Positions 1 to 12,751 of a stretch of DNA of 32,000 nt are shown here, one piece after another. The stretch comes from Kiritimatiella glycovorans (GTDB lineage: Bacteria; Verrucomicrobiota; Kiritimatiellia; Kiritimatiellales; Kiritimatiellaceae), in NCBI RefSeq assembly GCF_001017655.1, contig NZ_CP010904.1, positions 1,140,001 to 1,172,000 on the forward strand. Direction: 5' to 3'. The translations under genes were made by a program, and so were the position numbers. A model generated the notes under the pieces. It saw nothing but the letters and a program-made list of their open reading frames with translations. It was not told where the DNA came from and searched no databases. The stretch's first letter is position 1. Every line of letters begins with the position of its first letter.

Positions 1-744
1 TACCCCGATTGGCGTATCTACATCTCGGATCGGCTCACGGATAGCGAATACGCAGCAGGCCACGCACTCGATACGCTGGCAGATCGCCCGAACGTCGTCC
101 ACACGCCGGAGTTGCACCTCGGTGTTTCGATGCGCTCTTTCCGTGCGGAAAACGTCTCGCTGCTGGTGAAGCAGATTCTTGACCTCGATGCAGATGGCGC
201 TCGGGAAACGCTTGCGGCGATCGCCGATAAGTATCCCATCGTCATTACGCGTGATCTTAACAAGGCCAAGCGCTGGGTAAGTTCACATGCACGTGGATCA
301 GAACGATATGGCTTGGTCGTGTCCTCTCACGCGGAACGCCTGAAACCACATGCGATTGATGTCCGGTCGCCGATGAACCCGATTCACTGGTTTCTGGCAG
401 GAAAGGATGATGTTCGGTCCTCCTACTACCTGGAAGATGTGGCCACGGAGTTCCATATTCAGGGTTTAGAGCTCGACTGGGCGTGTGTCACGTGGGACGG
501 GGACTTCAGGCGATCGGAAAATGGCTGGGCGCACCACTCATTCCGAGGAAATCGGTGGGAGCGAATCCGGAAAGAAGACCGGAAGAGGTACCAGAAGAAC
601 GCTTACCGTGTTCTTCTCACCCGCGCGCGTCAGGGGATGGCGATTGTGGTCCCGCATGGCGATCCTGAGGACCCGACAAGGCGTCCGGAATTCTACGATC
701 CGACATATGAGTATCTGCGTGATATTGGGTTCAGGGTGATTTGA
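1..744 (+). CDS. DUF2075-family (Schlafen-like / UvrD_C-type) ATPase-helicase, C-terminal part; the 5' end lies outside the window
   Basis: Frame 1 is open from base 1 ([12 protein letters not shown]...) into the listed 112..744 ORF. C-terminal motifs are typical of DUF2075 proteins ([30 protein letters not shown]). Family call is from remembered motifs only. Confidence 0.6.
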
Positions 745-768: not shown

Positions 769-1653
769 CTATCGCTGGTTCTCCAGAAGCAGCGCTTCCT
801 GTTCGAGGCCGTAGCCGGTGGTGTCCATGATCTGAACAAGGCGAGAGACGATGGGGTGTGCTTCGCGGCGTAGTCGAGCCAGTATCGGCTCCGAATCGCG
901 AAGCAGGGCGCGTTTACCGTAGCGAGCGAACAGCTCATCGATGGACTCAGGCACATGCAGGTCAACGCGGTTACCGAACCTGTTGTATAGTCGCAGGAAT
1001 TCGTCGAGTCCGACGGGGTCGTAGTCGCCGCAGTGCAGGATCGAAGCGCCATTCATTTCGTCGGATGCAAGCCAGCGCTGGACGCGACCGGATAGACGCC
1101 CTCCAGCGTAGAGCGCGACAACTCGGCCGGTATCCAGCTTCTCGAAGTGGAGAAATACCTCCAGATTCTCGACGATGGCGATGCCTGTTTCAATCCGCCA
1201 GTTTTCTTCATCGTCAAGCAGCAAACAGGCGACTCCGGCGGAACGCGTGAGATCGAGCAGATCGACCTGGCTCTCACCGCGCGTGGCCTGGGCGGGTGCG
1301 AGGGCCCGCAGAAGAATGGGCTCCGCCGATGCCGTGCGGGCGCGCTTGGCATCTCGGAGTGTGCCGACGGCTTTGGCGCGCGGCATGATATCCCCGTCTT
1401 TGCAAGCGAGAGGAATGTCGCCATGAGGAAACAGCTTCGCCGTGAACTGATCCAACGCATCACGATCCGTCATCTCGAGAACCATGCCGCGTCCACGTCT
1501 GCGGCGCACCACCGCGCCGGTCTCGAGTAGCGGCCGCAGTTGTCTCTCAGTTCGGGCACTGAGTGCCGAATAGGGGAGGCTGCCCGCTTCAGCCAGTGCC
1601 TTCAATGCACGGTATGTGCCATCAGTGATCAACAGAGGCCTCTCTGTCGACAA
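769..1653 (-). CDS. jetD: JetD/MksG-like Toprim nuclease subunit, short form (294 aa)
   Basis: Last gene of the 4-gene operon. Toprim-type acidic motifs: IAIVENLEVF (Glu) and ILHCGDYDPVGLDEF (DxD). N-terminal winged-helix-like region. The listed start is TTG at 1653, overlapping the upstream stop by 32 nt; the true start is uncertain. Confidence 0.6.
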   Translation of the reverse strand: MSTERPLLITDGTYRALKALAEAGSLPYSALSARTERQLRPLLETGAVVRRRRGRGMVLEMTDRDALDQFTAKLFPHGDIPLACKDGDIMPRAKAVGTLRDAKRARTASAEPILLRALAPAQATRGESQVDLLDLTRSAGVACLLLDDEENWRIETGIAIVENLEVFLHFEKLDTGRVVALYAGGRLSGRVQRWLASDEMNGASILHCGDYDPVGLDEFLRLYNRFGNRVDLHVPESIDELFARYGKRALLRDSEPILARLRREAHPIVSRLVQIMDTTGYGLEQEALLLENQR

Positions 1654-4348
1654 TCCGCACTAGCGAAGATGCGGGATCGAGCACAACCCGGCCGTTTTCC
1701 TGCTCCGTCATAAAGTAGAGCCGGTCCGCGGCGTCCATCGCATCCGGGCTGGCAAGAACGGCCACGAAGCCCATTTCACGCGCAGCTCGCACCAAAGCGG
1801 CCAGGTTGTCGTTATCCAAGCTCGAACACTCATCCAGATAAAACGGGATGCGTACATTGGCGCCTTCAAGAAGGCCCTGAAGCAGAACAAGGTTGACCAA
1901 CACCTTGATCGTGATCGTGGTGCCGTTGGACTCGATGGCGTCCAGATGGGCATGCTGCTGAACCCGTTCGTCCGGAGTGCCCACCTCAAACTGCAGGTCA
2001 AAGAGGTCTTCGAGGTCGACACGCGGATGCTCGGAAAGAAGCCTTCCCAGGTCGTCAAAGGACTGGCGCACGGTTTGCGCGTCTGCGAACAGCGGCATGT
2101 CCTCGTTGAGGTTGACGCCGCGTATGTGGCGAACCCAGTCGGGTCGCTCGTGAACCAGCACCCGAAGTGAGGTTAGATTGGAAATCGTAACACGGCCGAT
2201 CTGCCGGTTCAGCCTCTGAACCAGGGCCTTGAGCGTGTCCAGATCGTGACCGATATTGCTGAGCGCTTTTTTGATGCCCACCGCTATACCCGTCCACAAT
2301 TCCTGTACGGCTCTTTCGCGTAGCGGGATGCTCTCCAACTGCTCACGCAGTGCCGCAACGGTGGCCGATTCATCCGCGCGCGCATAGCGGCTGTAGGTCT
2401 GTCGTTCGATGCGGTTCAGTAGCTCGTCCACGTGGTTCTGCTGAATGCGCTGATCTTCAAATGCCCGGTGGTACCGTGCCTTCAGCTCGTCGAGATCGTC
2501 CGGAAGGTCGTCACAGGGCACCATGGGCCATGCGCTTGCGGGTCGCTCGATGTCCCGAACGGTTCGGTCAAGCTCGTCCCGGCGCTGATCGATCCGCTGC
2601 ATTTCGCTGCGGCTATGATCGGCGGCACGGCCGAGCCGCAGACGCTCCTCCTCCAGCTCGCTTCGTTCCGCTTTGCGTGCCGCCTGCTCTTTTTCGATTG
2701 TTTCAATGTCGGCTCGCCATGTCTGCTCGTGCGAGGCTTGTTCCTGAAGCCGATGGTAGTCGCTGAGATCTCGAATGAGGCGGGTCAGTTCGTCTTCAAG
2801 GGCCTGCTTCTCGGACCGAAGCTTGGCGGCGTCGCGCGCACCTTCAAGCGCCTGGCGACACTGGGACTGTTGGGATTCAAGATCGTGAATCTCGCGTTCG
2901 ATCGTCGCGGGATTGCGGTACGCATCGATCTCCGGTGGGGGTAGTCCGGCGAGGTTGATGCGTACGCCGGCGCCCCGCCACATTCCACCGTCGCGCATGT
3001 CAAGCACCGCCCGCAGGGTCTTTCGGGCATGGGCATCGTCCTCGATGCCCCCCGGGGCATTTTCGCCCTTGACAGGCAAGGACAATAGCTCGGGACTGAG
3101 CAGACGAAACAGGTCCGCCAATTCGGAGTCATCGAAGTGCTCGCGCAACCAGTGGATCGCTGCTTCGGCCAGTCCCTGCAGGCGCCTGCGCTTCTGCAGA
3201 ATATCCGCGTCCAGCCTCTTGAGACGCGCTTGAAGCTGACCCTCTGGCGTCTGTTCCGACTGGCCCAGACGGAAGGCGAGGCGATCGATCTGCCGGCGAA
3301 CGTCATGCTGCCGCTGTTCGGCCCAATCGGGGAGGAAGTCGGCAAGACGTCGGCGTTCTTCATCAATGCGCTGGACGTTGCCGTTCAACTCACCAAGCCG
3401 ATGGTCTTGTTCGGCGATCTTTCCGCTGATCTGCTCCATGCAATCCTGCACCGTCTTGCTGCGCTCCTCGGACTTCTGAAGTTGCTGGCGTAGCGCCGAC
3501 TCATACCGGTCCAATCGGGCATGCGCTTCGGTCACGGCCTGTCCCATCGCTTGCCATAGCGCCGGCAACATTCGTCGGCATTCGTCGCGTCGCTCAATAT
3601 GCTTTAACAGTGCTTCAATGTCGTCCTGAAGCCGCTTCAAATCCTGAACTTCCCGGGAGTCGTGTTGAACCTTTTCGAAGCCCTGAGCATAGGTATCAGC
3701 CAGGTTGATACTGCGCTGTTGAAACTCTCCTTCGAAGATATCCAGGATAAGCCGCTTAAGCTCGTCCTGCTTCAAGTGGGAGAGGCGGAGAATGTTGTTA
3801 AACACCTTGCGAAAGCGTTCATAGGCGCCGCTATGGCGGGCTGGAACGAGCCCTAGATCGACTCCCCGGCTGTCGCCTACGCCGGTCAAGGCCGCGCGGA
3901 GCTGGTTGGGCTTGAGGCGCGTGAAGTCGCGATCGGCGAGCGCCCGGAAGATCTCCTCGTGCGGACGAATGCGACGGTTGGTGTCCAGGTAGTCGGTCGC
4001 ATCGAGGCGGCCGGCGTAGGAAAATCGCTCGAACTCGTACTGCCTAACGGGGCCGAGACCATGCGCACCCACGACTTGGAATCCTGTCGGAGTGAGGCAT
4101 TCAAAAAGTGCGAAACTGTGAACGTCCGGAAAGTAATAACGTCTGGTTTCCGGCATCTCGCGTGCGAAGTGCATTTGGCGCTGGTCGTCGATATACAGCA
4201 TCTGCAACAGTGCGATGAGGGAAGTCTTTCCCACGTTATTGGGCCCCACAAGGTGCAGGGGGGCGTCGAGTTCGACCTCCGCAAAATCGAACTTACCGCA
4301 GTTCAACAGCACTACTTTGGAGGGGCCCTTACGTTGGCTGTCAGTCAT
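1622..4348 (-). CDS. jetC: SMC/MukB-like ABC ATPase (JetC/MksB-like), 908 aa
   Basis: N-terminal Walker A (LVGPNNVGKTSLI). About 600 aa of Q/E/R/L-rich coiled-coil-like sequence. C-terminal signature-position ESNGT, then Walker B/D-loop IPFYLDECSSLD. ATG at 4348 overlaps the upstream stop by 8 nt. Confidence 0.7.
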   Translation of the reverse strand: MTDSQRKGPSKVVLLNCGKFDFAEVELDAPLHLVGPNNVGKTSLIALLQMLYIDDQRQMHFAREMPETRRYYFPDVHSFALFECLTPTGFQVVGAHGLGPVRQYEFERFSYAGRLDATDYLDTNRRIRPHEEIFRALADRDFTRLKPNQLRAALTGVGDSRGVDLGLVPARHSGAYERFRKVFNNILRLSHLKQDELKRLILDIFEGEFQQRSINLADTYAQGFEKVQHDSREVQDLKRLQDDIEALLKHIERRDECRRMLPALWQAMGQAVTEAHARLDRYESALRQQLQKSEERSKTVQDCMEQISGKIAEQDHRLGELNGNVQRIDEERRRLADFLPDWAEQRQHDVRRQIDRLAFRLGQSEQTPEGQLQARLKRLDADILQKRRRLQGLAEAAIHWLREHFDDSELADLFRLLSPELLSLPVKGENAPGGIEDDAHARKTLRAVLDMRDGGMWRGAGVRINLAGLPPPEIDAYRNPATIEREIHDLESQQSQCRQALEGARDAAKLRSEKQALEDELTRLIRDLSDYHRLQEQASHEQTWRADIETIEKEQAARKAERSELEEERLRLGRAADHSRSEMQRIDQRRDELDRTVRDIERPASAWPMVPCDDLPDDLDELKARYHRAFEDQRIQQNHVDELLNRIERQTYSRYARADESATVAALREQLESIPLRERAVQELWTGIAVGIKKALSNIGHDLDTLKALVQRLNRQIGRVTISNLTSLRVLVHERPDWVRHIRGVNLNEDMPLFADAQTVRQSFDDLGRLLSEHPRVDLEDLFDLQFEVGTPDERVQQHAHLDAIESNGTTITIKVLVNLVLLQGLLEGANVRIPFYLDECSSLDNDNLAALVRAAREMGFVAVLASPDAMDAADRLYFMTEQENGRVVLDPASSLVRIVDREASVDH

Positions 4349-4934
4349 TGTTCACCGCTTGTTGATCACGATCGGTCGATTCGCCATCGCTGGGTTCGGA
4401 AGCAGTACGATCCGCTGCCGGCATTTCGAGTGCGAGATCGAGAAAGCGATAGGCGGCGGGGCGAAAGGTGAAGCTCTCGTCTGGAAGGCGGTTTACGAAG
4501 CCGAAGCGCTCCATGGTCTGCACAAGTTGCTCGACCTCACCCGGCTCCGTGATGCCTGCTTCACGCATAAGGCGCCGATAGCGCTCCACGGTCAGGTGAG
4601 GCAAATCGCCGGGGCGGAAATGTCGCGACATGACGGTTTCCTCTATCGCATCGCCCCGGTCGGCGAGATGCTCGATGAGGATGAACACGAACACAGCCAT
4701 CCGTGCGGAAAGGTCCGTGAAGTTGCTGCGGTCGACGAAATAGAAGAAGTCCCGGGGGTGGTGCACCAGCTCGAATCCGAGCTTTGCAAAGAGCGCTGTG
4801 AAGTCCTCGGTGTGAGACTTAAGTGGCGTGTAGAGGGAACCGTCGGTCATGCAGACGTGTCGCCCCCGACGGAGTGCCTCGAAAACGGCTTCAAGGTTCG
4901 GCAAATCGAAGCGTGTATCGGCGTCCTGAGTCAT
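4341..4934 (-). CDS. jetB: Small MukE/KITE-like subunit (JetB/MksE, DUF4194-like), 197 aa
   Basis: Position and size between the kleisin-like and SMC-like genes. ATGA start/stop overlap with the upstream gene at 4931-4934. Acidic tail. Family call rests on synteny plus loose motif memory (FTALFAKLGFELV...FFYF). Confidence 0.55.
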   Translation of the reverse strand: MTQDADTRFDLPNLEAVFEALRRGRHVCMTDGSLYTPLKSHTEDFTALFAKLGFELVHHPRDFFYFVDRSNFTDLSARMAVFVFILIEHLADRGDAIEETVMSRHFRPGDLPHLTVERYRRLMREAGITEPGEVEQLVQTMERFGFVNRLPDESFTFRPAAYRFLDLALEMPAADRTASEPSDGESTDRDQQAVNND

Positions 4935-6163
4935 CGCTCAATATCTCCGGTTGCCACCGACATGGGATGCGCGGACAGACAGAGATTCCCGAGCTGATAT
5001 CTGCGGCTGGGGGACCCGAAATTCGTGTGTCCGTAACGCCCCCCGTGCAACCGCCCATACAACTTGAGCAGAGTTAGCGGCGCCGCATGCGGATAGGTCT
5101 CGGCAAGCCACGCGAAGGCATCATCGATCGGGACTGCGGAGCGCGCATCTTCCGGGAACCGCGCCAGGTCATCATAGTCCTGTTTCTGCCCCGGAGACAG
5201 CGGGGCAGGCAGTGGCTCGGGGGCGTGCGGTTCGTAACCTCTCAGCTCGAACAGATAAGCTTCCAGGGCCAGATCGCTGAAGATGCCACGTTGCCGCCAG
5301 TTGCAAATGCCCATCTTGTTGGGTAAGTCCAGCGAGGAGAGCCCCCGGTGCACGATGCGCTCAAGGGCATGCGATGCGCCTCGCGCGATCGCCGTTTCCT
5401 GGCGGAGCTCCTCATAGAGGGGCGTGACTTCCCGCACGGTTTCGTTGAAGTCGTCCAACACGTCGCGTCGAAGACGCCGTAGGCGGGCCTCGCCGCCACG
5501 GACAACTTGTTGAACCACACCATCGGCGGCAAAACGGGTCTCCGCGTCTCCGTATACGCGCGTCAGCCGGTCGAGCGCCGCGTCCATGCTCTTCTGCGTG
5601 TCAATGATGTCGCGCAGGGGAGCGATATAGCGCGTCCATAAGCGATTGATCACCTCGTAGCGTTGCCGCGGCGCAAGGCGTTCCCGGTTGGTTTTGATCC
5701 GGATCACATCCGCGATAACCTTCGCACGGTTGTTGCGCGAGTCGTGCCGCATCCGCTCGACATGTTCCTCAAGTTCGCCGTTGACCCGTACGAGCAGGTC
5801 GCTGTTGGCCGCACTGACGGCATCTCCAAGCTCGGAGGCCAGGTTGTCGATCGCATTAAAGTAGGAGCGAATGACCTCGACGCTGGTCAGTCGGTACTCG
5901 CGCAGCAGATAGCCCATCAACGTTGCCACGGGACGTGTCATCTCGAGCTGAGCCGTCGCTTGGGGCGACGGCTCCAGGATGCCGAGGTCCAGCAGCCGGT
6001 CACGCATATATGGTGCCGTAGGAGATTGGGGCTCCGCATATCGCCGTATCAACGCGAAGACCTCCGCCTCAGGCAACCCGTCCTTCTTGTAGTACAGTTC
6101 GCACAGCAACGCATAATGCTCTGCCGCAAATCGGAAGAACGTCTGTGGATTCGTCAATGCCAT
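4931..6163 (-). CDS. jetA: Kleisin-like subunit (JetA/MksF, DUF3375-like), 410 aa
   Basis: First gene of the coupled operon, ATG at 6163. Helical, R/E-rich middle. Size and position fit the MukF/JetA role. Assignment is mainly by operon architecture. Confidence 0.5.
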   Translation of the reverse strand: MALTNPQTFFRFAAEHYALLCELYYKKDGLPEAEVFALIRRYAEPQSPTAPYMRDRLLDLGILEPSPQATAQLEMTRPVATLMGYLLREYRLTSVEVIRSYFNAIDNLASELGDAVSAANSDLLVRVNGELEEHVERMRHDSRNNRAKVIADVIRIKTNRERLAPRQRYEVINRLWTRYIAPLRDIIDTQKSMDAALDRLTRVYGDAETRFAADGVVQQVVRGGEARLRRLRRDVLDDFNETVREVTPLYEELRQETAIARGASHALERIVHRGLSSLDLPNKMGICNWRQRGIFSDLALEAYLFELRGYEPHAPEPLPAPLSPGQKQDYDDLARFPEDARSAVPIDDAFAWLAETYPHAAPLTLLKLYGRLHGGRYGHTNFGSPSRRYQLGNLCLSAHPMSVATGDIER

Positions 6164-6427
6164 CTATACCCCAAAAAACAGATCGACTATATAAGCGAAT
6201 CCTATACTACTCGCGCGGTCATGTCCATTTGAGTCGATAGATGGGTTGTCGGTGGTTGTCGGGGCATAGAGCAGAGCCGTTTCCTTATCGCCGGGCTTCG
6301 GTCAACGGCAGAAGATGGGTTCGCGGTAGTGTTCGATGGCTCCAGGGGCCGGGGTGAAGCGGTGCGGCGCTTTTCAGAGAGGCTACACGGGATACCTTGG
6401 CTGGCCTTAGCCAGCGCGGTCGGGATC

Positions 6428-6455
6428 TTGCGCCCGGCGGCGGGATGAGTATAAT
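6428..6455 (+). promoter_or_regulatory. Candidate sigma70-type promoter for serA
   Basis: TTGCGC (6428-6433), 16-nt spacer, TATAAT (6450-6455), about 40 nt upstream of the serA ATG. Confidence 0.3.
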
Positions 6456-6496
6456 GACGGCTTTTGAGCGCAAAGAAAACCGGAGAGGTATACAGG

Positions 6497-8074
6497 ATGA
6501 AAAAGGTGTTGATTCCGACGAAGCTGAATGCGGTGGCGAGAGAGCTGCTGAAGGACAGCGGAGGCTATAATGTGGTTCACGACGACAGTACGGAGCTGAA
6601 GGAACTGGCGGCGCAGCATCCGGATACGTACGCGTTGATCGTGCGCAGCGATAAGGTCACGCCGGAGATCATCGACGCGCTGCCGGAATTGAAGGTCATC
6701 GTACGCGCAGGCGCAGGCTACAATACGATCGATATCCGCTACGCCCGCCAGCGCGGCGTCGATGTCATGAATACCCCCGGCGCCAACGCGAACGCAGTCG
6801 CGGAAGAAGTCGTCACCCTCATGCTGGCCGACGCCCGCCACGTGGTCCAGGCGGATGTCTCGACCCGCGAGGGCAAATGGGAGAAAAAAACGCTCATGGG
6901 CCGCGAACTGACCGGCAAGACGGTCGGGATCGTCGGATTCGGGGCGATCGGACGCCTCGTGGCCCGGCGACTGGCGGGATTCGATATCAAACTGCTCACG
7001 TATGATCCGGTCCTTTCGGAAGATCGGGCGGAGGAATTCGGCGCGGAACTGGTCGACCTGCCGACGCTCTTCGAGCGCTGCGACTACATCTCGCTTCACA
7101 TCCCCGAAAACGACGATACGCGCGGCATGATCAATAAAGACCTGGCCGGCCGTATGAAGGAGGGCGCGACGCTCGTCAATTGCGCCCGGGCGGGAATTAT
7201 CAACGAGGACGACCTGCGCGCGGTGAAAGCCGAAAAGAACATCCGCTTCCTCAATGATGTATATCCGAAAGACGCCGCCGGCGAAAAGAGTGTGGCGGAT
7301 ATCGCCGACCTGATGATGCCGCACCTCGGCGCGAGTACGGTCGAGGCGAACTACAACGCCGCGAAACGCGCCGCGGACCAGCTCATGGAATACGACGAAA
7401 AGGGTATGTCGACCTATATCGTCAACCGCGATGTCCCCGAAGGACTGGACGAAATGTACGCGGACCTGGCCTATGATCTCGCCCACCTCGCGCGGCAGTG
7501 GGTCGGCGCACGCAATAAGCTCAAGATGATCGAAACCAGCGTGTACGGCTCGCTGAAGCCGTTCTCGGACTGGATGATCGTCCCGATCCTGGCCGCGGTC
7601 AGCGAGGAGTTCGACCGCAGTATGGAGGCCGCCGCGGCGCGCGAATACCTGAAAGATATGGGTATCGACTACAACGACCGCGAGACGGATGACACGAAGA
7701 ACTACGGTAATACGATCACGATCGATCTCGCGGCCAATGTCGATCACGGCAGCCTGCGCCGGGTGAGTATCCGCGGTACGGTCGCCGAAGGGCGCCTGAT
7801 GATCTCAAGGATCGACGATTTCGATAAGCTGTACTTTGAACCGGAAGGCCATGCCGTCTTCTTCCGCTATGAGGACCGTCCCGGCGTCCTCGGCCAGATC
7901 GGTGTGGCGCTGGCCGACCACGGGATCAATATCGACGATGTCCGTAACCCGCACGACGAAAGCGGGAAATACTCGCTGGCAATCATGAAAACCAGCAGCC
8001 CCGTCGATCAGGAGATCGTCGACCGTATCGCGGGCGAGATCGACGCGCCGTACGCGGTGGGGATCACGTTCTGA
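6497..8074 (+). CDS. serA: D-3-phosphoglycerate dehydrogenase, long form with C-terminal ACT domain
   Basis: 2-hydroxyacid dehydrogenase motifs (GIVGFGAIGRLVA NAD fold, NCARAG, HLGAST). C-terminal ACT-like segment (FRYEDRPGVLGQIGVALADHGINI). Start trimmed to ATG 6497, preceded by GGAGAGG; the track start is TTG 6464. Confidence 0.9.
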   Translation: MKKVLIPTKLNAVARELLKDSGGYNVVHDDSTELKELAAQHPDTYALIVRSDKVTPEIIDALPELKVIVRAGAGYNTIDIRYARQRGVDVMNTPGANANAVAEEVVTLMLADARHVVQADVSTREGKWEKKTLMGRELTGKTVGIVGFGAIGRLVARRLAGFDIKLLTYDPVLSEDRAEEFGAELVDLPTLFERCDYISLHIPENDDTRGMINKDLAGRMKEGATLVNCARAGIINEDDLRAVKAEKNIRFLNDVYPKDAAGEKSVADIADLMMPHLGASTVEANYNAAKRAADQLMEYDEKGMSTYIVNRDVPEGLDEMYADLAYDLAHLARQWVGARNKLKMIETSVYGSLKPFSDWMIVPILAAVSEEFDRSMEAAAAREYLKDMGIDYNDRETDDTKNYGNTITIDLAANVDHGSLRRVSIRGTVAEGRLMISRIDDFDKLYFEPEGHAVFFRYEDRPGVLGQIGVALADHGINIDDVRNPHDESGKYSLAIMKTSSPVDQEIVDRIAGEIDAPYAVGITF

Positions 8075-8096
8075 TCTGCGGGATTAGCGGAATCGG

Positions 8097-8633
8097 TTAG
8101 CGAGATCGCGCCTTGTCTTCTCTGAGCCGGACGTCGGCGGCGGCGACGAGGTCTTCGCCGTCGCCGGGAAAACATGCACAGCCGGCGGAGAAGGGCAGGG
8201 GGGCCGTCTTCCGCAGGCGGTCCAGCAGATTCAGGGCCCCCTCGGAACCGGTCTCGGGAAGCACGACCAGAAACTCGTCGCCGCCCCATCGCCCGCACAC
8301 GTCGGATCCGCGCACCGCCCTGCGCAGAAAGTCGGCGAACGCACGCAGCATCTCATCGCCGGCCGGATGCCCCTCCCGGTCGTTGACCGCCTTGAACCCG
8401 TCCAGATCGAGCAGCAGAACCGCTAACGGACGCCGGTAGCGAAGGCCGATCGCAAGCTGCTGCGAAAAAACCTGTTCAATACCCCGCCGGTTGAGGATTC
8501 CGGTGAGGGTATCCCGCGCGATAAGGGCTATTACCCGCTCAATCGTATTTTCATCGACCCCCTGCCGCCGTAAAGAATCGCAGAGCCCCCCCCACTCACC
8601 GCAGTACCGGTCATGCATGTCAGAGTTAATCAT
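8097..8633 (-). CDS. Stand-alone GGDEF diguanylate cyclase (178 aa) with intact I-site
   Basis: LLLDLDGFKAVNDREGHPAGDEML, then RGSD (RxxD), five residues, then GGDEF. Only about 45 aa precede the catalytic domain. Confidence 0.85.
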   Translation of the reverse strand: MINSDMHDRYCGEWGGLCDSLRRQGVDENTIERVIALIARDTLTGILNRRGIEQVFSQQLAIGLRYRRPLAVLLLDLDGFKAVNDREGHPAGDEMLRAFADFLRRAVRGSDVCGRWGGDEFLVVLPETGSEGALNLLDRLRKTAPLPFSAGCACFPGDGEDLVAAADVRLREDKARSR

Positions 8634-8937
8634 AAGTAATTCTTTTATGTTTTAGCCTGCCAGCTGAAAGAGCACAGAGAACCCGGATCCCAAGTATTCA
8701 AAATACGCGACATGGTGACGATATATTTTTAAATATTTCTGCAAATCATCATTGACGTAAAGAACAAAAAAGAGTTATGAACAATCCCAGTGATGGCGGG
8801 ATTTATGGAAAGAATACAGAGTCGGAACCTGCACGTGAAGTTCCGAATCCGCTTTCCTGTATTTAAGGCTCTGTATTTCATAAAAAGACCCCGGGAAGGC
8901 GGATCCGGACCATAAAGTCATACGGAGGATACCAATC

Positions 8938-11542: not shown

Positions 11543-12751
11543 TGAGAAGTGTAATGTGAAATGCCGCAGGTATAGGAGAGAGCGTTCCATGCCGTGGTTC
11601 GCTATCCTTTGTGGTCTTACAACAGGACAACAGAGGAAGGAGACGGCATGGAACAGAATCAGAATAGCAGGAAGGGCAAGCACTTGACGAGGGTGGAGCG
11701 CATGGTGATTGAGCGGATGTCCCGTGGGGGGATCCCCCCACGGGACATCGCGGCCGCCTTGGAGCGTCACCCGCGTACGATCCAGCGTGAGCTCAAGCGC
11801 GGGACGGTGACCCACCGGGACTCGGAGTGGCGGGAATACCGGACCTACAGCAGCGATCGCGGCCAGGACCTCCATGATTACCACGCCACCGCAAGGGGGC
11901 CCGGTCTGAGGCTGGGCCGCAACTATGCGCTGGCCGAATTCATCCGTTGCCGCATTGTGGAACATAAGGAATCGCCCGATGTAGTCGCCTTTCGGATGCG
12001 TCAGGCCGGTCTGGAGGAGGTGGTGTGCACCAAGACGATCTATAACTACATCGATAAAGGCGTCATTTTCGGGCTCAGCAACGAGTCACTGTGGGAGAAG
12101 CGTAAGCGAGCCAAGCGGCGCAAACGCGGCGCTCGGCGGTTGGCGAAGCGGATTTCCAAAGGCAAAAGCATCGACCAGCGTCCCGAAGGAGCCGAGACGC
12201 GCGAGGAGTTCGGACACTGGGAGATGGACCTGGTGACCGGCCCCACGCGCGGGTCCAATGCCGCCCTATTGACCCTGGTGGAACGCAGACATCGGATCAC
12301 GATCATTCGCAAGCTGCCTGATAAGAGCCAAGCCAGCGTGCTCAAAGTTCTCAGAGGGCTCGAGCGTGAACATGGCTCCCGCTGCTTCCGTCAGATCTTC
12401 AAGACCATCACGGTCGACAACGGCAGCGAGTTCCTGGACTTCGAAGCCTTAGAAGCCTCTTCCTTCTCGAAGCAACAGCGAACCCAGATCTTCTACGCCC
12501 ACCCATACTCATCCTGGGAACGCGGATCGAACGAGAACGGCAACAGGATGATCAGACGGTTCGTGGCCAAGGGCCGGGATATCGCGCGCTTTACCAAGCA
12601 GAAAATCCGCGACATCGAGCTATGGATCAATAACTACCCGCGCCGGATCCTCGACTTCATGACCCCTCACGAACTCTTCACGAACGAACTCAAAACGATC
12701 TCATAAATGAAACAAGACCACTACATGCGGCATTTGGGTTTACAACCTACC
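11543..12751 (+). mobile_element. IS30-family insertion sequence, 1209 bp, apparently intact
   Basis: Single DDE transposase ORF. Imperfect terminal inverted repeats with conserved blocks TGTAA and AAATGCCGCA, each at the same distance (16 nt) from its end. Flanked by a 15-bp direct repeat. Confidence 0.8.
11648..12706 (+). CDS. IS30-family DDE transposase (352 aa)
   Basis: N-terminal HTH (LTRVERMVIERMSRGGIPPRDIAAALERHPRTIQRELKRG). Catalytic core with HWEMDLV, TVDNGSEF and SWERGSNEN. AGGAAGGAG RBS before ATG 11648. Confidence 0.9.
   Translation: MEQNQNSRKGKHLTRVERMVIERMSRGGIPPRDIAAALERHPRTIQRELKRGTVTHRDSEWREYRTYSSDRGQDLHDYHATARGPGLRLGRNYALAEFIRCRIVEHKESPDVVAFRMRQAGLEEVVCTKTIYNYIDKGVIFGLSNESLWEKRKRAKRRKRGARRLAKRISKGKSIDQRPEGAETREEFGHWEMDLVTGPTRGSNAALLTLVERRHRITIIRKLPDKSQASVLKVLRGLEREHGSRCFRQIFKTITVDNGSEFLDFEALEASSFSKQQRTQIFYAHPYSSWERGSNENGNRMIRRFVAKGRDIARFTKQKIRDIELWINNYPRRILDFMTPHELFTNELKTIS

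What the first reader, a model, noticed from the sequence alone, without database searches (positions are those of the whole stretch)
769..6163. Compact four-gene kleisin / KITE / SMC-ATPase / Toprim operon: a Wadjet (JetABCD, MksBEFG)-like system with unusually short subunits
Seen in sequence: four minus-strand ORFs are translationally coupled, by an ATGA overlap at 4931-4934, an 8-nt overlap at 4341-4348 and a 32-nt overlap at 1622-1653. The gene order is a 410-aa helical protein, a 197-aa acidic-tailed protein, a 908-aa ATPase, then a 294-aa protein. The ATPase has Walker A GPNNVGKTS, a long coiled-coil-like middle and Walker B IPFYLDECSSLD. The 294-aa protein carries Toprim-type acidic motifs (IVENLE and HCGDYDPVG). 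Established knowledge: this order and content define the anti-plasmid Wadjet system, an SMC loop-extruder plus a topo-VI-like nuclease. Inference: every subunit is shorter than the canonical proteins as I remember them (JetC about 1100 aa, JetA about 480-500, JetD about 380-400). The ABC signature position also reads ESNGT rather than LSGG. So this is either a minimal or divergent Wadjet subtype, or a related uncharacterised SMC-nuclease system.
Basis: partly seen in the sequence, partly recalled or inferred. Interest (0 to 1): 0.7.

Follow-up and report, generated by a model that had tools for sequence, protein, structure and literature searches.

The report
Compact Wadjet-type plasmid defence operon
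This is a real four-gene operon from Kiritimatiella glycovorans that pairs a small DNA-looping SMC motor with a DNA-cutting enzyme, very probably to destroy invading plasmids; it belongs to a compact, widespread but experimentally unstudied branch of the known Wadjet/MksBEFG family, so it is a solid but not surprising find.

Summary
Four co-directional, overlapping minus-strand genes encode a MukF-fold kleisin (410 aa), a MukE/MksE KITE (197 aa), an SMC-type ATPase (908 aa) and a winged-helix + Toprim nuclease. The nuclease is about 287 aa: homologues and a Shine-Dalgarno site favour the TTG at 1632, giving an 11-nt rather than 32-nt overlap.

The Wadjet-like reading is right at the level of the Wadjet/Mks group. 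The "unusually short" part is mostly not.
- The three core proteins align end to end with NCBIfam Mks-condensin models of 412, 232 and 926 positions.
- They fall in Pfam families named MksB, MksE and MksF.
- The same 405/185/900/281-aa architecture recurs in about 40 genomes from many phyla and on two plasmids.
- A sister operon (Desulfosediminicola ganghwensis, 407/185/916/281 aa) is already listed as "FEBG" in a published 2025 Wadjet-group census, which also holds many MksG genes of 264-303 aa.

What is distinctive:
- PADLOC's type I-III models barely see it, and find no kleisin.
- The nuclease lacks the N-terminal extension of type I JetD.
- The core resembles models named for the Mks condensin, which is nuclease-less in Pseudomonas, yet this operon keeps an intact nuclease.

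Verdict: new member of a known kind, in an uncharacterised compact subtype. Moderate interest.

The parts
4931..6163 (-). Gene 1: kleisin (MukF / JetA / MksF role; labelled 'MksB' in Pfam PF28010 and NCBIfam NF040857), 410 aa. Layout: N-terminal winged helix (about residues 6-75), helical bundle (77-285), disordered linker (288-327), C-terminal winged helix (324-404).
   Evidence: ORF. NCBIfam condensinMksB E=7e-23 over residues 5-373 of a 412-position model. AF2 model with mean pLDDT 82.9. Foldseek PDB top 14 hits are all MukF chains, best E=2.4e-5. Precomputed Pfam PF28010 'MksB'. No sequence-level match to MukF by hhalign and no PADLOC JetA hit.
4341..4934 (-). Gene 2: KITE subunit (MukE / JetB / MksE), 197 aa, with a variable acidic C-terminal tail. 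Its start overlaps the gene 1 stop (ATGA).
   Evidence: Pfam MksE PF21980 E=3.3e-31, 109 bits against a cutoff of 27, covering 1-162 of 163 positions. NCBIfam condensinMksE E=9e-25. hhalign of the family against E. coli MukE: 94.4% probability, 148 columns. Weak PDB MukE hits. Junction read.
1622..4348 (-). Gene 3: SMC-type ABC ATPase (MukB / JetC role; labelled 'MksF' in Pfam PF28007 and NCBIfam NF040859), 908 aa. Layout: N-head about 1-215 (Walker A at 35-43); arm 216-400; Pro/Gly-rich hinge about 401-485; arm 486-690 with a Pro-rich break at 603-616; C-head 691-908 (ESNGT at 806-810, Walker B FYLDE at 836-840).
   Evidence: NCBIfam condensinMksF E=1.4e-73 over residues 5-869 against 4-894 of 926 positions. 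Pfam DUF3584 C-terminal hit. hhalign against E. coli MukB C-head: 94% probability. Motif conservation. Composition of arms and hinge. 8-nt overlap with gene 2 read.
769..1632 (-). Gene 4: JetD/MksG-like nuclease, probably 287 aa from the TTG at 1632 (the longest ORF starts at 1653, 294 aa). Layout, numbered on the 294-aa ORF: winged helix about residues 10-75, beta-rich linker 76-150, Toprim 150-294 with E162, D210-x-D212 and E284-x-E286.
   Evidence: Pfam JetD_C 25.1 bits against a cutoff of 22; DUF7281 and DUF2399 below cutoff. All 26 tested homologues hit JetD_C. PADLOC JetD1 E=2.6e-7, covering only profile positions 236-407 of 409. AF2 mean pLDDT 94.4. Foldseek PDB: Topo VI-A 9o8p 5e-5, MksG 8b7f 2e-4, JetD 7til 1e-3; the N-terminus matches ArsR/MarR-type winged helices. 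Start-site argument.
6199..6227 (-). Candidate promoter (TGGACA, 17-nt spacer, TAGGAT) 36 nt upstream of the gene 1 start, inside the 300-nt intergenic region shared with the divergent serA-like gene.
   Evidence: Consensus scan. The number of such sites in the region is no higher than in shuffles, so this is only a positional suggestion.

Best explanation
This is a compact member of the Wadjet / MksBEFG group: an SMC-based system that restricts foreign DNA, chiefly plasmids.

Proposed mechanism, by analogy with type I and II Wadjet:
1. The kleisin dimerises through its N-terminal winged helix. It bridges the neck and cap of an SMC dimer, with KITE dimers bound to its middle region.
2. This gives a dimer of ATP-driven motor units that load on DNA and extrude loops.
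3. On a small circular DNA the two motors run out of free DNA and stall.
4. The stalled complex presents bent DNA to a dimer of the fourth protein. Its Toprim metal site (E162, D210/D212, E284/E286) then cuts the DNA hydrolytically, since there is no conserved tyrosine in its winged helix.

Shown here: the identity of all four folds, intact and conserved catalytic motifs, a conserved four-gene operon, and a patchy, mobile, defence-island distribution.

Inferred only: loop extrusion, sensing of circular DNA, and plasmid restriction.

What is particular to this subtype:
- SMC arms of roughly 185-205 residues each.
- A nuclease reduced to winged helix + Toprim, without the N-terminal extension of type I JetD, so it must dock on the core differently.
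- Core subunits whose best profile matches are the Mks condensin models rather than typed JetA/B/C.
For: Architecture and coupling.

The four subunits:
- Kleisin fold.
- KITE.
- SMC ATPase, full-length match to the Mks model, MukB-like C-head, conserved Walker A, Walker B and ES(N)GT.
- Nuclease: Pfam JetD_C above its gathering score; confident model matching Topo VI-A, MksG and JetD; invariant E...DxD...ExE. In C. glutamicum MksG, mutating the Mg-binding E236 and D279 abolished cleavage, and E349/E351 are the alternative nucleophiles proposed for JetD (PMC10123090). The spacing is similar here: 48 and 74 residues, against 43 and 70 in MksG.

Conservation: about 40 complete A-B-C-D loci of the same sizes in Kiritimatiellia, Victivallales/Lentisphaerales, Elusimicrobia, Desulfobulbia, Thiomargarita, Opitutaceae, Burkholderiales, Fibrobacteraceae and others.

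Defence-type behaviour:
- Neighbours vary from genome to genome and are enriched in defence genes: PDC-S41 in the window, and SoFic, DpdE/ZorD-like helicase, AbiEi and PDC-S01 elsewhere.
- There are plasmid-borne copies next to DUF262 and ABC-3C genes.
- There are decayed copies.

Already counted in the Wadjet group: Desulfosediminicola ganghwensis FEBG, 407/185/916/281 aa, in Data S1 of PMC7617805.
Against: - No functional data exist for any member of this compact clade.
- PADLOC's typed Wadjet models give only weak, partial hits, and none for the kleisin.
- The family profile of the nuclease finds neither JetD nor MksG by sequence in the PDB.
- The closest named profiles are condensin models, and the P. 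aeruginosa MksBEF is a chromosome organiser.
- The operon sits in the chromosome next to housekeeping genes: serA-like, and a Glu/Gln-tRNA synthetase.
- The signature-position motif is non-canonical (ESNGT), and its exact register against MukB's LSTGE is ambiguous by four residues.
- The nuclease lacks the region that in type I JetD contacts JetB, so activation cannot be assumed to work the same way.
Confidence: 0.75

Rival explanations
1. It is mainly a chromosome-organising condensin of the Pseudomonas MksBEF type. The fourth protein would be an accessory DNA-processing or regulatory subunit, for example resolving entanglements, and not an anti-plasmid effector.
For: The best profile matches of the three core proteins are the NCBIfam 'Mks condensin complex' models, over their full length and with matching sizes, and Pfam MksB/MksE/MksF. 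P. aeruginosa MksBEF acts in chromosome organisation and segregation. The window copy is chromosomal and flanked on one side by housekeeping genes. The best structural match of the fourth protein is a topoisomerase subunit, Topo VI-A.
Against: - Scores are far below the NCBIfam equivalog cutoffs (81 against 750, 87 against 400, 248 against 1900 bits), so this is not the same orthologous group.
- The P. aeruginosa locus is described as a three-gene operon.
- The fourth protein has no conserved tyrosine in its winged helix and no Topo VI-B-like partner, so religation chemistry is unlikely.
- The distribution is patchy across phyla, with variable defence-gene neighbours, plasmid copies and decayed copies. 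That is typical of defence systems and not of core chromosome machinery.
Confidence: 0.12
2. It is a defence system built from the same parts but with a different trigger or target from type I/II Wadjet. It might act on phage DNA, on linear or conjugative elements, or have a markedly different size limit, because the arms are shorter and the nuclease docks differently.
For: - The SMC arms are about 185-205 residues, against the roughly 50-nm coiled coils described as typical of SMC proteins.
- The nuclease lacks the N-terminal part that links type I JetD to JetABC. PADLOC JetD1 aligns only from profile position 236.
- JetD and JetABC of different types are not interchangeable.
- At least one copy sits on a 76-kb plasmid, so that plasmid evidently coexists with it.
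Against: All parts needed for the extrusion-and-cleavage scheme are present and conserved. Types I and II, although divergent from each other, both cleave circular DNA selectively. No extra sensor gene is conserved next to the operon.
Confidence: 0.1
3. The operon is a decaying or inactive remnant.
For: Some related loci are clearly degraded. L042 and L049 have the kleisin N-terminus joined to the nuclease C-terminus, with KITE and SMC missing. L030 has a split SMC gene.
Against: In the window all four reading frames are intact and full length. They are translationally coupled and keep every invariant catalytic residue of their families.
Confidence: 0.03

Closest known systems
Wadjet / JetABCD / MksBEFG / EptABCD (types I-III; studied in E. 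coli GF4-3, P. aeruginosa PA14, C. glutamicum, Neobacillus vireti)
   Same: Four co-directional genes in the order kleisin, KITE, SMC ATPase, Toprim nuclease. The kleisin has a MukF-like fold. The KITE is MukE-like. The nuclease has the JetD_C Toprim with the E...DxD...ExE acidic residues and no catalytic tyrosine in its CAP/winged-helix domain. It sits in a defence-island context, with copies on plasmids.
   Different: - All subunits are shorter than the typed models: SMC 908 aa against PADLOC JetC profiles of 1068-1473 positions, and nuclease about 287 aa against JetD profiles of 395-430.
- The nuclease has no counterpart of the first ~235 positions of the JetD1 profile.
- The PADLOC type I-III HMMs give only weak, partial hits, and none for the kleisin.
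- The family profile of the nuclease does not detect JetD or MksG by sequence.
Pseudomonas aeruginosa-type MksBEF condensin (PA4684-PA4686), taken here to be the family behind NCBIfam NF040857/8/9 and Pfam MksB/MksE/MksF
   Same: Best profile matches for all three core subunits, over their full length and with nearly identical sizes (410/197/908 aa against models of 412/232/926). Same gene order. Published descriptions of this family note shorter coiled coils (recalled from the abstract of Petrushenko et al. 2011, which the tools could not retrieve).
   Different: Scores are far below the equivalog cutoffs, so this is a distant relative and not an orthologue. The P. aeruginosa operon is described as three genes and works in chromosome organisation. 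This operon carries a fourth, intact nuclease gene and behaves like a mobile defence locus. That the NCBIfam and Pfam models were built on the P. aeruginosa proteins is my assumption from their names; I could not verify it.
E. coli MukBEF
   Same: The kleisin fold matches MukF best of all solved structures. The KITE aligns with MukE. The SMC C-terminal head aligns with MukB residues 1205-1449.
   Different: MukB has 1486 aa with much longer arms. MukBEF has no nuclease and has MatP/Topo IV partners. Sequence similarity to MukF is undetectable.
Topoisomerase VI subunit A / Spo11
   Same: The fourth protein is a winged helix followed by a Toprim domain. M. mazei Topo VI-A is its best structural match, aligned over 267 columns.
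   Different: There is no conserved tyrosine in the winged helix, no B subunit, and only 11% identity. A hydrolytic nuclease is expected, not a reversible covalent cleavage.

Membership tests
Wadjet group (JetABCD / MksBEFG) | Operon of kleisin, KITE, SMC ATPase and Toprim nuclease genes, co-directional and adjacent | tested here: met
   The same arrangement occurs in about 40 related loci.
Wadjet group (JetABCD / MksBEFG) | Kleisin with N-terminal winged helix, helical bundle, flexible linker and C-terminal winged helix (MukF/JetA-like) | tested here: met
   AF2 model. The top 14 PDB fold matches are MukF. Not detectable by sequence against MukF or the PADLOC JetA models.
Wadjet group (JetABCD / MksBEFG) | MukE-like KITE subunit | tested here: met
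   Pfam MksE 109 bits against a cutoff of 27. hhalign against MukE gives 94% probability.
Wadjet group (JetABCD / MksBEFG) | SMC/MukB-like ABC ATPase with Walker A, signature motif, Walker B, two coiled-coil arms and a hinge | tested here: met
   Walker A, Walker B and a conserved ES(N)GT at the signature position. The C-head aligns with MukB. Arm and hinge composition. Arms and hinge are inferred from composition and weak coiled-coil-type matches, not modelled.
Wadjet group (JetABCD / MksBEFG) | JetD/MksG nuclease: Toprim domain with the metal-binding Glu and DxD, plus the ExE pair | tested here: met
   Pfam JetD_C above its gathering score. All 26 homologues tested hit it. E162, D210, D212 and E286 are invariant in 112 sequences; E284 is in at least 90%. 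The fold matches MksG 8b7f and JetD 7til.
Wadjet group (JetABCD / MksBEFG) | ATP-dependent, selective cleavage of small circular DNA, and plasmid restriction in vivo | not testable with these tools
   Needs cloning and biochemistry.
Wadjet type I (also II, III) as typed by PADLOC / Doron et al. | Significant, near full-length matches of all four proteins to the type-specific JetA-D models (DUF3375, DUF4194, JetC, and DUF3322+DUF2220 for type I; DUF2397/2398/2399 for type II) | tested here: not met
   PADLOC: no JetA hit; JetB1 E=1e-3; best JetC E=4e-5, partial; JetD1 E=2.6e-7, C-terminal part only. Pfam: DUF4194 and DUF2398/2399 below cutoff, and no DUF3375, DUF2397 or DUF3322 hit.
Wadjet type I | JetD with an extended N-terminal arm-CAP (aCAP) that binds the JetB N-terminus | tested here: not met
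   The protein has only about 150 residues before the Toprim Glu, folded as a plain winged helix plus a short beta-rich linker. PADLOC JetD1 aligns only from profile position 236 of 409.
Pfam MksB / MksE / MksF families (PF28010 / PF21980 / PF28007) | Membership by the Pfam model | tested here: met
   MksE was scored directly. PF28010 and PF28007 are not in the local Pfam copy, but they are precomputed for the window's own proteins P0387 and P0121 and are named.
Mks condensin equivalogs (NCBIfam NF040857 / NF040858 / NF040859) | Score above the curated equivalog cutoff | tested here: not met
   81 against 750, 87.5 against 400 and 248 against 1900 bits, although the alignments are full length. 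The same holds for divergent clade members.
Mks condensin (P. aeruginosa MksBEF) | Three-gene operon without a nuclease; role in chromosome organisation | tested here: not met
   A fourth, intact nuclease gene is present and conserved. PA4684-PA4686 is described as a three-gene operon. The role itself is not testable here.
Topoisomerase VI-A / Spo11 | Catalytic tyrosine in the winged-helix (5Y-CAP) domain, and a partner B subunit | tested here: not met
   There is no invariant or near-invariant Tyr before residue 150 in 112 sequences. No B-subunit gene is conserved nearby.
Other ABC-ATPase + nuclease defence systems (Lamassu, Gabija, PARIS, OLD) | Family-specific ATPase and effector models; no kleisin or KITE | tested here: not met
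   Only P-loop-level or coiled-coil-level PADLOC hits to GajA, AriA, LmuB and Old (E of 1e-2 to 2e-4). A kleisin and a KITE are present.

The most novel reading that the evidence does not exclude
The compact clade may be the nuclease-retaining sister of the nuclease-less Pseudomonas-type MksBEF condensin. That would make it a living intermediate. It would support the proposal that chromosomal MksBEF arose from a Wadjet-like defence system by losing JetD (review PMC10586767), and it would argue against the earlier view that MksBEF and MksBEFG are unrelated (Lioy et al. 2020 preprint).

In addition, its minimal winged-helix + Toprim nuclease and short arms would define a fourth mechanistic type of Wadjet. 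This type would dock its nuclease on the SMC core differently, and might have a different plasmid-size limit.
Probability: 0.3. Interest if true: 0.55.

Novelty: new member of a known kind. Interest (0 to 1): 0.35.

Why it matters
Wadjet is the one bacterial defence known to recognise foreign DNA by shape and size, not by sequence. All mechanistic work so far is on types I and II.

- This compact branch is widespread in environmental phyla and is annotated almost everywhere as "hypothetical protein", so current defence-system counts may miss it. PADLOC's 2023 models give only weak, partial hits and none for the kleisin.
- Its small size (5.4 kb, about 1,800 residues in all) and stripped-down nuclease could make it a convenient minimal model. 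It could show how an SMC motor licenses a Toprim nuclease, and how arm length relates to the size limit for plasmids.
- It also bears on an open evolutionary question: whether chromosome-organising MksBEF and MukBEF descend from defence systems. Here a core resembling the condensin models still carries the nuclease.

None of this overturns current understanding. It extends a known family.

Tried and rejected
- Sequence searches of each protein against PDB chains gave nothing useful except weak MukE hits. The nuclease family profile against the PDB also found nothing, so the links to JetD and MksG rest on the Pfam HMM and on fold.
- hhalign of the kleisin family against E. coli MukF gave no signal. 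The question was settled by structure prediction and fold search instead.
- Petrushenko et al. 2011 (PMC3179180) is not held. What I say about that paper is from memory of its abstract.
- An exact-sequence look-up of the K. glycovorans SMC protein found no record, so I could not see the genome beyond the window's left edge. The genome scan did not return K. glycovorans itself.
- I could not obtain P. aeruginosa MksBEF sequences with the remaining caps, so no phylogeny of this clade against PaMksB and JetC types I-III was built.
- I looked for a conserved fifth gene next to the operon. None exists: the most frequent neighbour family occurs in 8 of 40 loci.
- I considered Lamassu, Gabija, PARIS and OLD-type systems and rejected them. 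Their hits are at P-loop level only, and a kleisin and a KITE are present.
- I considered a topoisomerase-like function for the fourth protein and rejected it as the main reading. It has no conserved tyrosine and no B subunit.
- The promoter and terminator scans are uninformative: their counts are no higher than in shuffles.
Full report
**1. The observation**

The four minus-strand ORFs exist exactly as described: 4931-6163 (410 aa), 4341-4934 (197 aa), 1622-4348 (908 aa) and 769-1653 (294 aa, TTG start). Reading the junctions directly confirms the ATGA overlap at 4931-4934 and the 8-nt ATGACTGA overlap at 4341-4348.

The 32-nt overlap at 1622-1653 is that of the longest mechanical ORF. All full-length homologues of the fourth protein begin M-x-D-G/A. 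This aligns with an in-frame TTG at 1632, which has GAGAGG six bases upstream. The gene is therefore most likely 769-1632 (287 aa), with an 11-nt overlap.

NCBI annotates only a 238-aa product (P0001). That is too short. Residues 10-56 are conserved, with invariant G54 and G56, and are modelled at pLDDT 95-98.

The quoted motifs are present and are family invariants:
- Walker A GPNNVGKTS, Walker B FYLDE and ES(N)GT in the ATPase.
- VENLE, HCGDYDP and LEQE in the fourth protein.

**2. Source**

The window's own proteins are 100% identical to Kiritimatiella glycovorans proteins on a 2.95-Mb contig (P0001, P0121, P0387). NCBI's names for them are "JetD domain-containing protein", "hypothetical protein" and "hypothetical protein".

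**3. What each protein is**

*Gene 1 (410 aa).*
- It has no hit in the local Pfam copy or in PADLOC, and no sequence similarity to E. coli MukF by hhalign.
- It aligns over residues 5-373 with the 412-position NCBIfam model condensinMksB (E=7e-23).
- An AlphaFold2 model built from 62 homologues (mean pLDDT 82.9) shows the kleisin layout: N-terminal winged helix, long helical bundle, disordered linker at 288-327, C-terminal winged helix.
- Its top 14 PDB matches are all MukF chains.

*Gene 2 (197 aa).* It is an MksE/MukE KITE. Pfam MksE gives E=3e-31 with full coverage, NCBIfam condensinMksE gives E=9e-25, and hhalign against MukE gives 94% probability over 148 columns.

*Gene 3 (908 aa).*
- It aligns over residues 5-869 with the 926-position NCBIfam model condensinMksF (E=1.4e-73).
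- Its C-terminal head aligns with MukB residues 1205-1449 (94% probability).
- Composition indicates two charged, Pro/Gly-poor arms (216-400 and 486-690) around a Pro/Gly-rich hinge (401-485). There is a Pro-rich break at 603-616 that could be an elbow. This layout is inferred, not modelled.

*Gene 4.*
- It passes the Pfam JetD_C gathering score (25.1 against 22 bits), with weaker DUF7281 and DUF2399 hits, all confined to residues 153-291.
- Its AlphaFold2 model is very confident (mean pLDDT 94.4).
- The best solved-structure matches are M. mazei Topo VI-A (E=5e-5, 267 columns), C. glutamicum MksG 8b7f (2e-4) and P. aeruginosa JetD 7til (1e-3).
- Residues 10-75 on their own match ArsR/MarR-type winged helices.
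- In MksG, mutating the Mg-binding E236 and D279 abolished cleavage, and E349/E351 are the alternative nucleophiles proposed for JetD (PMC10123090). The counterparts here, with similar spacing, are E162, D210/D212 and E284/E286. All are invariant or nearly invariant in 112 sequences.
- No tyrosine is conserved in the winged helix, as in JetD and MksG.
- Y182 lies 20 residues after E162 and is present in at least 90% of sequences. It may correspond to MksG Y258, which lies 22 residues after E236. I did not test this.

**4. Is it unusually short?**

Mostly not.
- The three core proteins match models of almost their own length (412, 232 and 926 positions).
- The current Pfam release places them in families named MksB (PF28010), MksE (PF21980) and MksF (PF28007).
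- Homologues are tightly sized: 900-910 aa for the ATPase, about 405-420 aa for the kleisin and 278-300 aa for the nuclease.
- An exhaustive profile search found 774 nuclease representatives at 50% clustering (244 at E<=1e-30); nearly all of the 150 best listed are 275-300 aa.
- A genome scan returned 56 loci. About 40 are complete enough to show the whole operon, and they carry the same four genes in the same order and sizes, often with 4-nt overlaps. They come from Kiritimatiellia, Victivallales, Lentisphaerales, Elusimicrobia, Desulfobulbia, Thiomargarita, Opitutaceae, Burkholderiales, Fibrobacteraceae and others.
- Two plasmids carry it as well, Salinibacter ruber pSR76 and Polaromonas pPNAP02, annotated throughout as hypothetical proteins.

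The clade is also already in the literature's catalogue. Data S1 of the 2025 MukBEF paper (PMC7617805) lists Desulfosediminicola ganghwensis as "FEBG" with genes of 407, 185, 916 and 281 aa. A congener, D. flagellatus, is my locus L024. That census admitted MksB proteins above 890 aa and MksF from 400 aa. It contains many MksG genes of 264-303 aa in other clades, for example gammaproteobacterial BEFG operons.

**5. What is distinctive**

- *Typing.* PADLOC's typed Wadjet models barely recognise the system. There is no JetA hit, JetB1 scores E=1e-3, the best JetC scores E=4e-5 and is partial, and JetD1 scores E=2.6e-7 and covers only profile positions 236-407 of 409. So it cannot be assigned to type I, II or III.
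- *Nuclease.* It is reduced to a winged helix, a short beta-rich linker and the Toprim domain. It lacks a counterpart of the N-terminal part of type I JetD. In type I, the arm-CAP there shields the active site and contacts the N-terminus of JetB. Docking and licensing must therefore differ in detail. JetD and JetABC from different types are known not to be interchangeable.
- *Core.* The core subunits resemble the condensin-named Mks models far more than the typed Jet models (248 bits against about 20 bits for the ATPase), and the most divergent clade members behave the same way. However, the scores are far below the equivalog cutoffs, and the operon keeps an intact nuclease. The P. aeruginosa MksBEF locus is described as a three-gene operon and works in chromosome organisation. 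One group judged MksBEF and MksBEFG unlikely to share an ancestor. [quoted passage not shown] This clade fits the second view. I could not obtain P. aeruginosa sequences to build the tree that would test it. That the NCBIfam and Pfam Mks models are built on the P. aeruginosa proteins is my assumption from their names.

**6. Defence or housekeeping?**

In the window the operon lies between two genes.
- On one side is the 3' end of a gene matching the candidate defence protein PDC-S41 (Schlafen-type helicase). The match has E=2.9e-98, and the reading frame is open from window position 1 to 744.
- On the other side is a divergent serA-like gene.

Across the related loci no fifth gene is conserved. 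The recurrent neighbours are defence genes: SoFic, a DpdE/ZorD-like SNF2 helicase, AbiEi and PDC-S01. On the plasmids they are DUF262 and ABC-3C genes. Some loci are decayed (L042, L049, L030). Taken together, the patchy distribution across phyla, variable defence-rich neighbourhoods, plasmid copies and decay are the usual signature of a mobile defence system, not of core chromosome machinery.

**7. Mechanism**

Inferred by analogy with types I and II:
1. A kleisin-bridged dimer of SMC motor units loads on DNA and extrudes loops using ATP.
2. On small circles the motors stall against each other.
3. The stalled complex hands bent DNA to a dimer of the Toprim nuclease for metal-dependent, non-covalent cleavage.

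Shown here: the four folds, the intact motifs, the conserved operon and the genomic behaviour. Not shown: any activity.

**8. Verdict**

The finding is real and the family-level interpretation is correct. The claim of unusual shortness does not hold as an anomaly. It is a new member of a known kind, within a compact subtype that is uncharacterised and poorly annotated. Interest is moderate (0.35). The most novel reading not excluded is a nuclease-bearing sister of the chromosomal MksBEF condensin with a distinct nuclease-docking mode. I give that a probability of about 0.3.

Noticed in passing
window 1-744 (+): This is the 3' end of a gene that runs off the window start. It matches the candidate defence protein PDC-S41 (E=2.9e-98, profile positions 444-652 of 657) and the Pfam Schlafen group 3 helicase domain. 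It converges on the operon, with 24 nt between the two stop codons.
   Followed up: partly
window 769-1653 (-); also L060 12873-13589, L062 12849-13544, L058 8187-8882: The nuclease gene is systematically called too short in public annotation: 238 aa in K. glycovorans, and 231-238 aa elsewhere. Its start is a TTG/GTG overlapping the SMC gene. The missing part is the conserved, confidently folded winged helix.
   Followed up: yes
NCBIfam NF040857/NF040859 and Pfam PF28010/PF28007, as matched to window 4931-6163 and 1622-4348: Both libraries label the ~410-aa kleisin-fold protein 'MksB' and the ~900-aa ATPase 'MksF'. In the papers read here, MksB is the SMC-like ATPase and MksF the kleisin (JetA/MksF and JetC/MksB in PMC7617805; mksF-mksE-mksB gene order in the Lioy et al. 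preprint). The labels look swapped and could mislead annotation.
   Followed up: partly
L042 7008-8814; L049 7366-8498; protein P0252: In some genomes the kleisin N-terminus is followed directly by, or fused to, the C-terminal part of the nuclease, with the KITE and SMC genes missing. These look like internal-deletion remnants of the operon, found in at least two loci and one metagenomic protein.
   Followed up: partly
L058 (Salinibacter ruber plasmid pSR76, 76 kb) 3051-8882; L059 (Polaromonas naphthalenivorans pPNAP02, 190 kb) 850-6525: Complete copies of the compact four-gene operon sit on circular plasmids, one of them only 76 kb. That raises the question of how the carrier plasmid avoids being cut. 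The Polaromonas copy is more divergent (435/193/946/316 aa).
   Followed up: no
window 1622-4348 (-), SMC residues 603-616: A Pro-rich stretch (ERPASAWPMVPCDDLPDD) interrupts the C-terminal arm. Gly/Pro at residues 309-340 of the N-terminal arm lie roughly opposite it. This may be an elbow-like break in a very short arm.
   Followed up: no
window 11594-12706 (+): An IS30-like transposase ORF (HTH_38 plus an integrase core domain) lies about 5 kb from the operon, beyond the serA-like, GGDEF and Glu/Gln-tRNA synthetase genes.
   Followed up: no
window 6407-7747 (-): A 446-aa ORF lies antisense to the serA-like gene (6464-8074, +). It has a low-complexity, Arg/Val/Asp-rich translation and is most likely a shadow ORF of the high-GC sequence, not a gene.
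   Followed up: no
L062 3375-8124 and L063 2190-6939: In a Syntrophotaleaceae genome the compact operon lies directly downstream of an SbcCD-like pair: a metallophosphatase plus a 1167-aa SMC_N/AAA_23 ATPase. That puts two SMC-like nuclease systems side by side.
   Followed up: no
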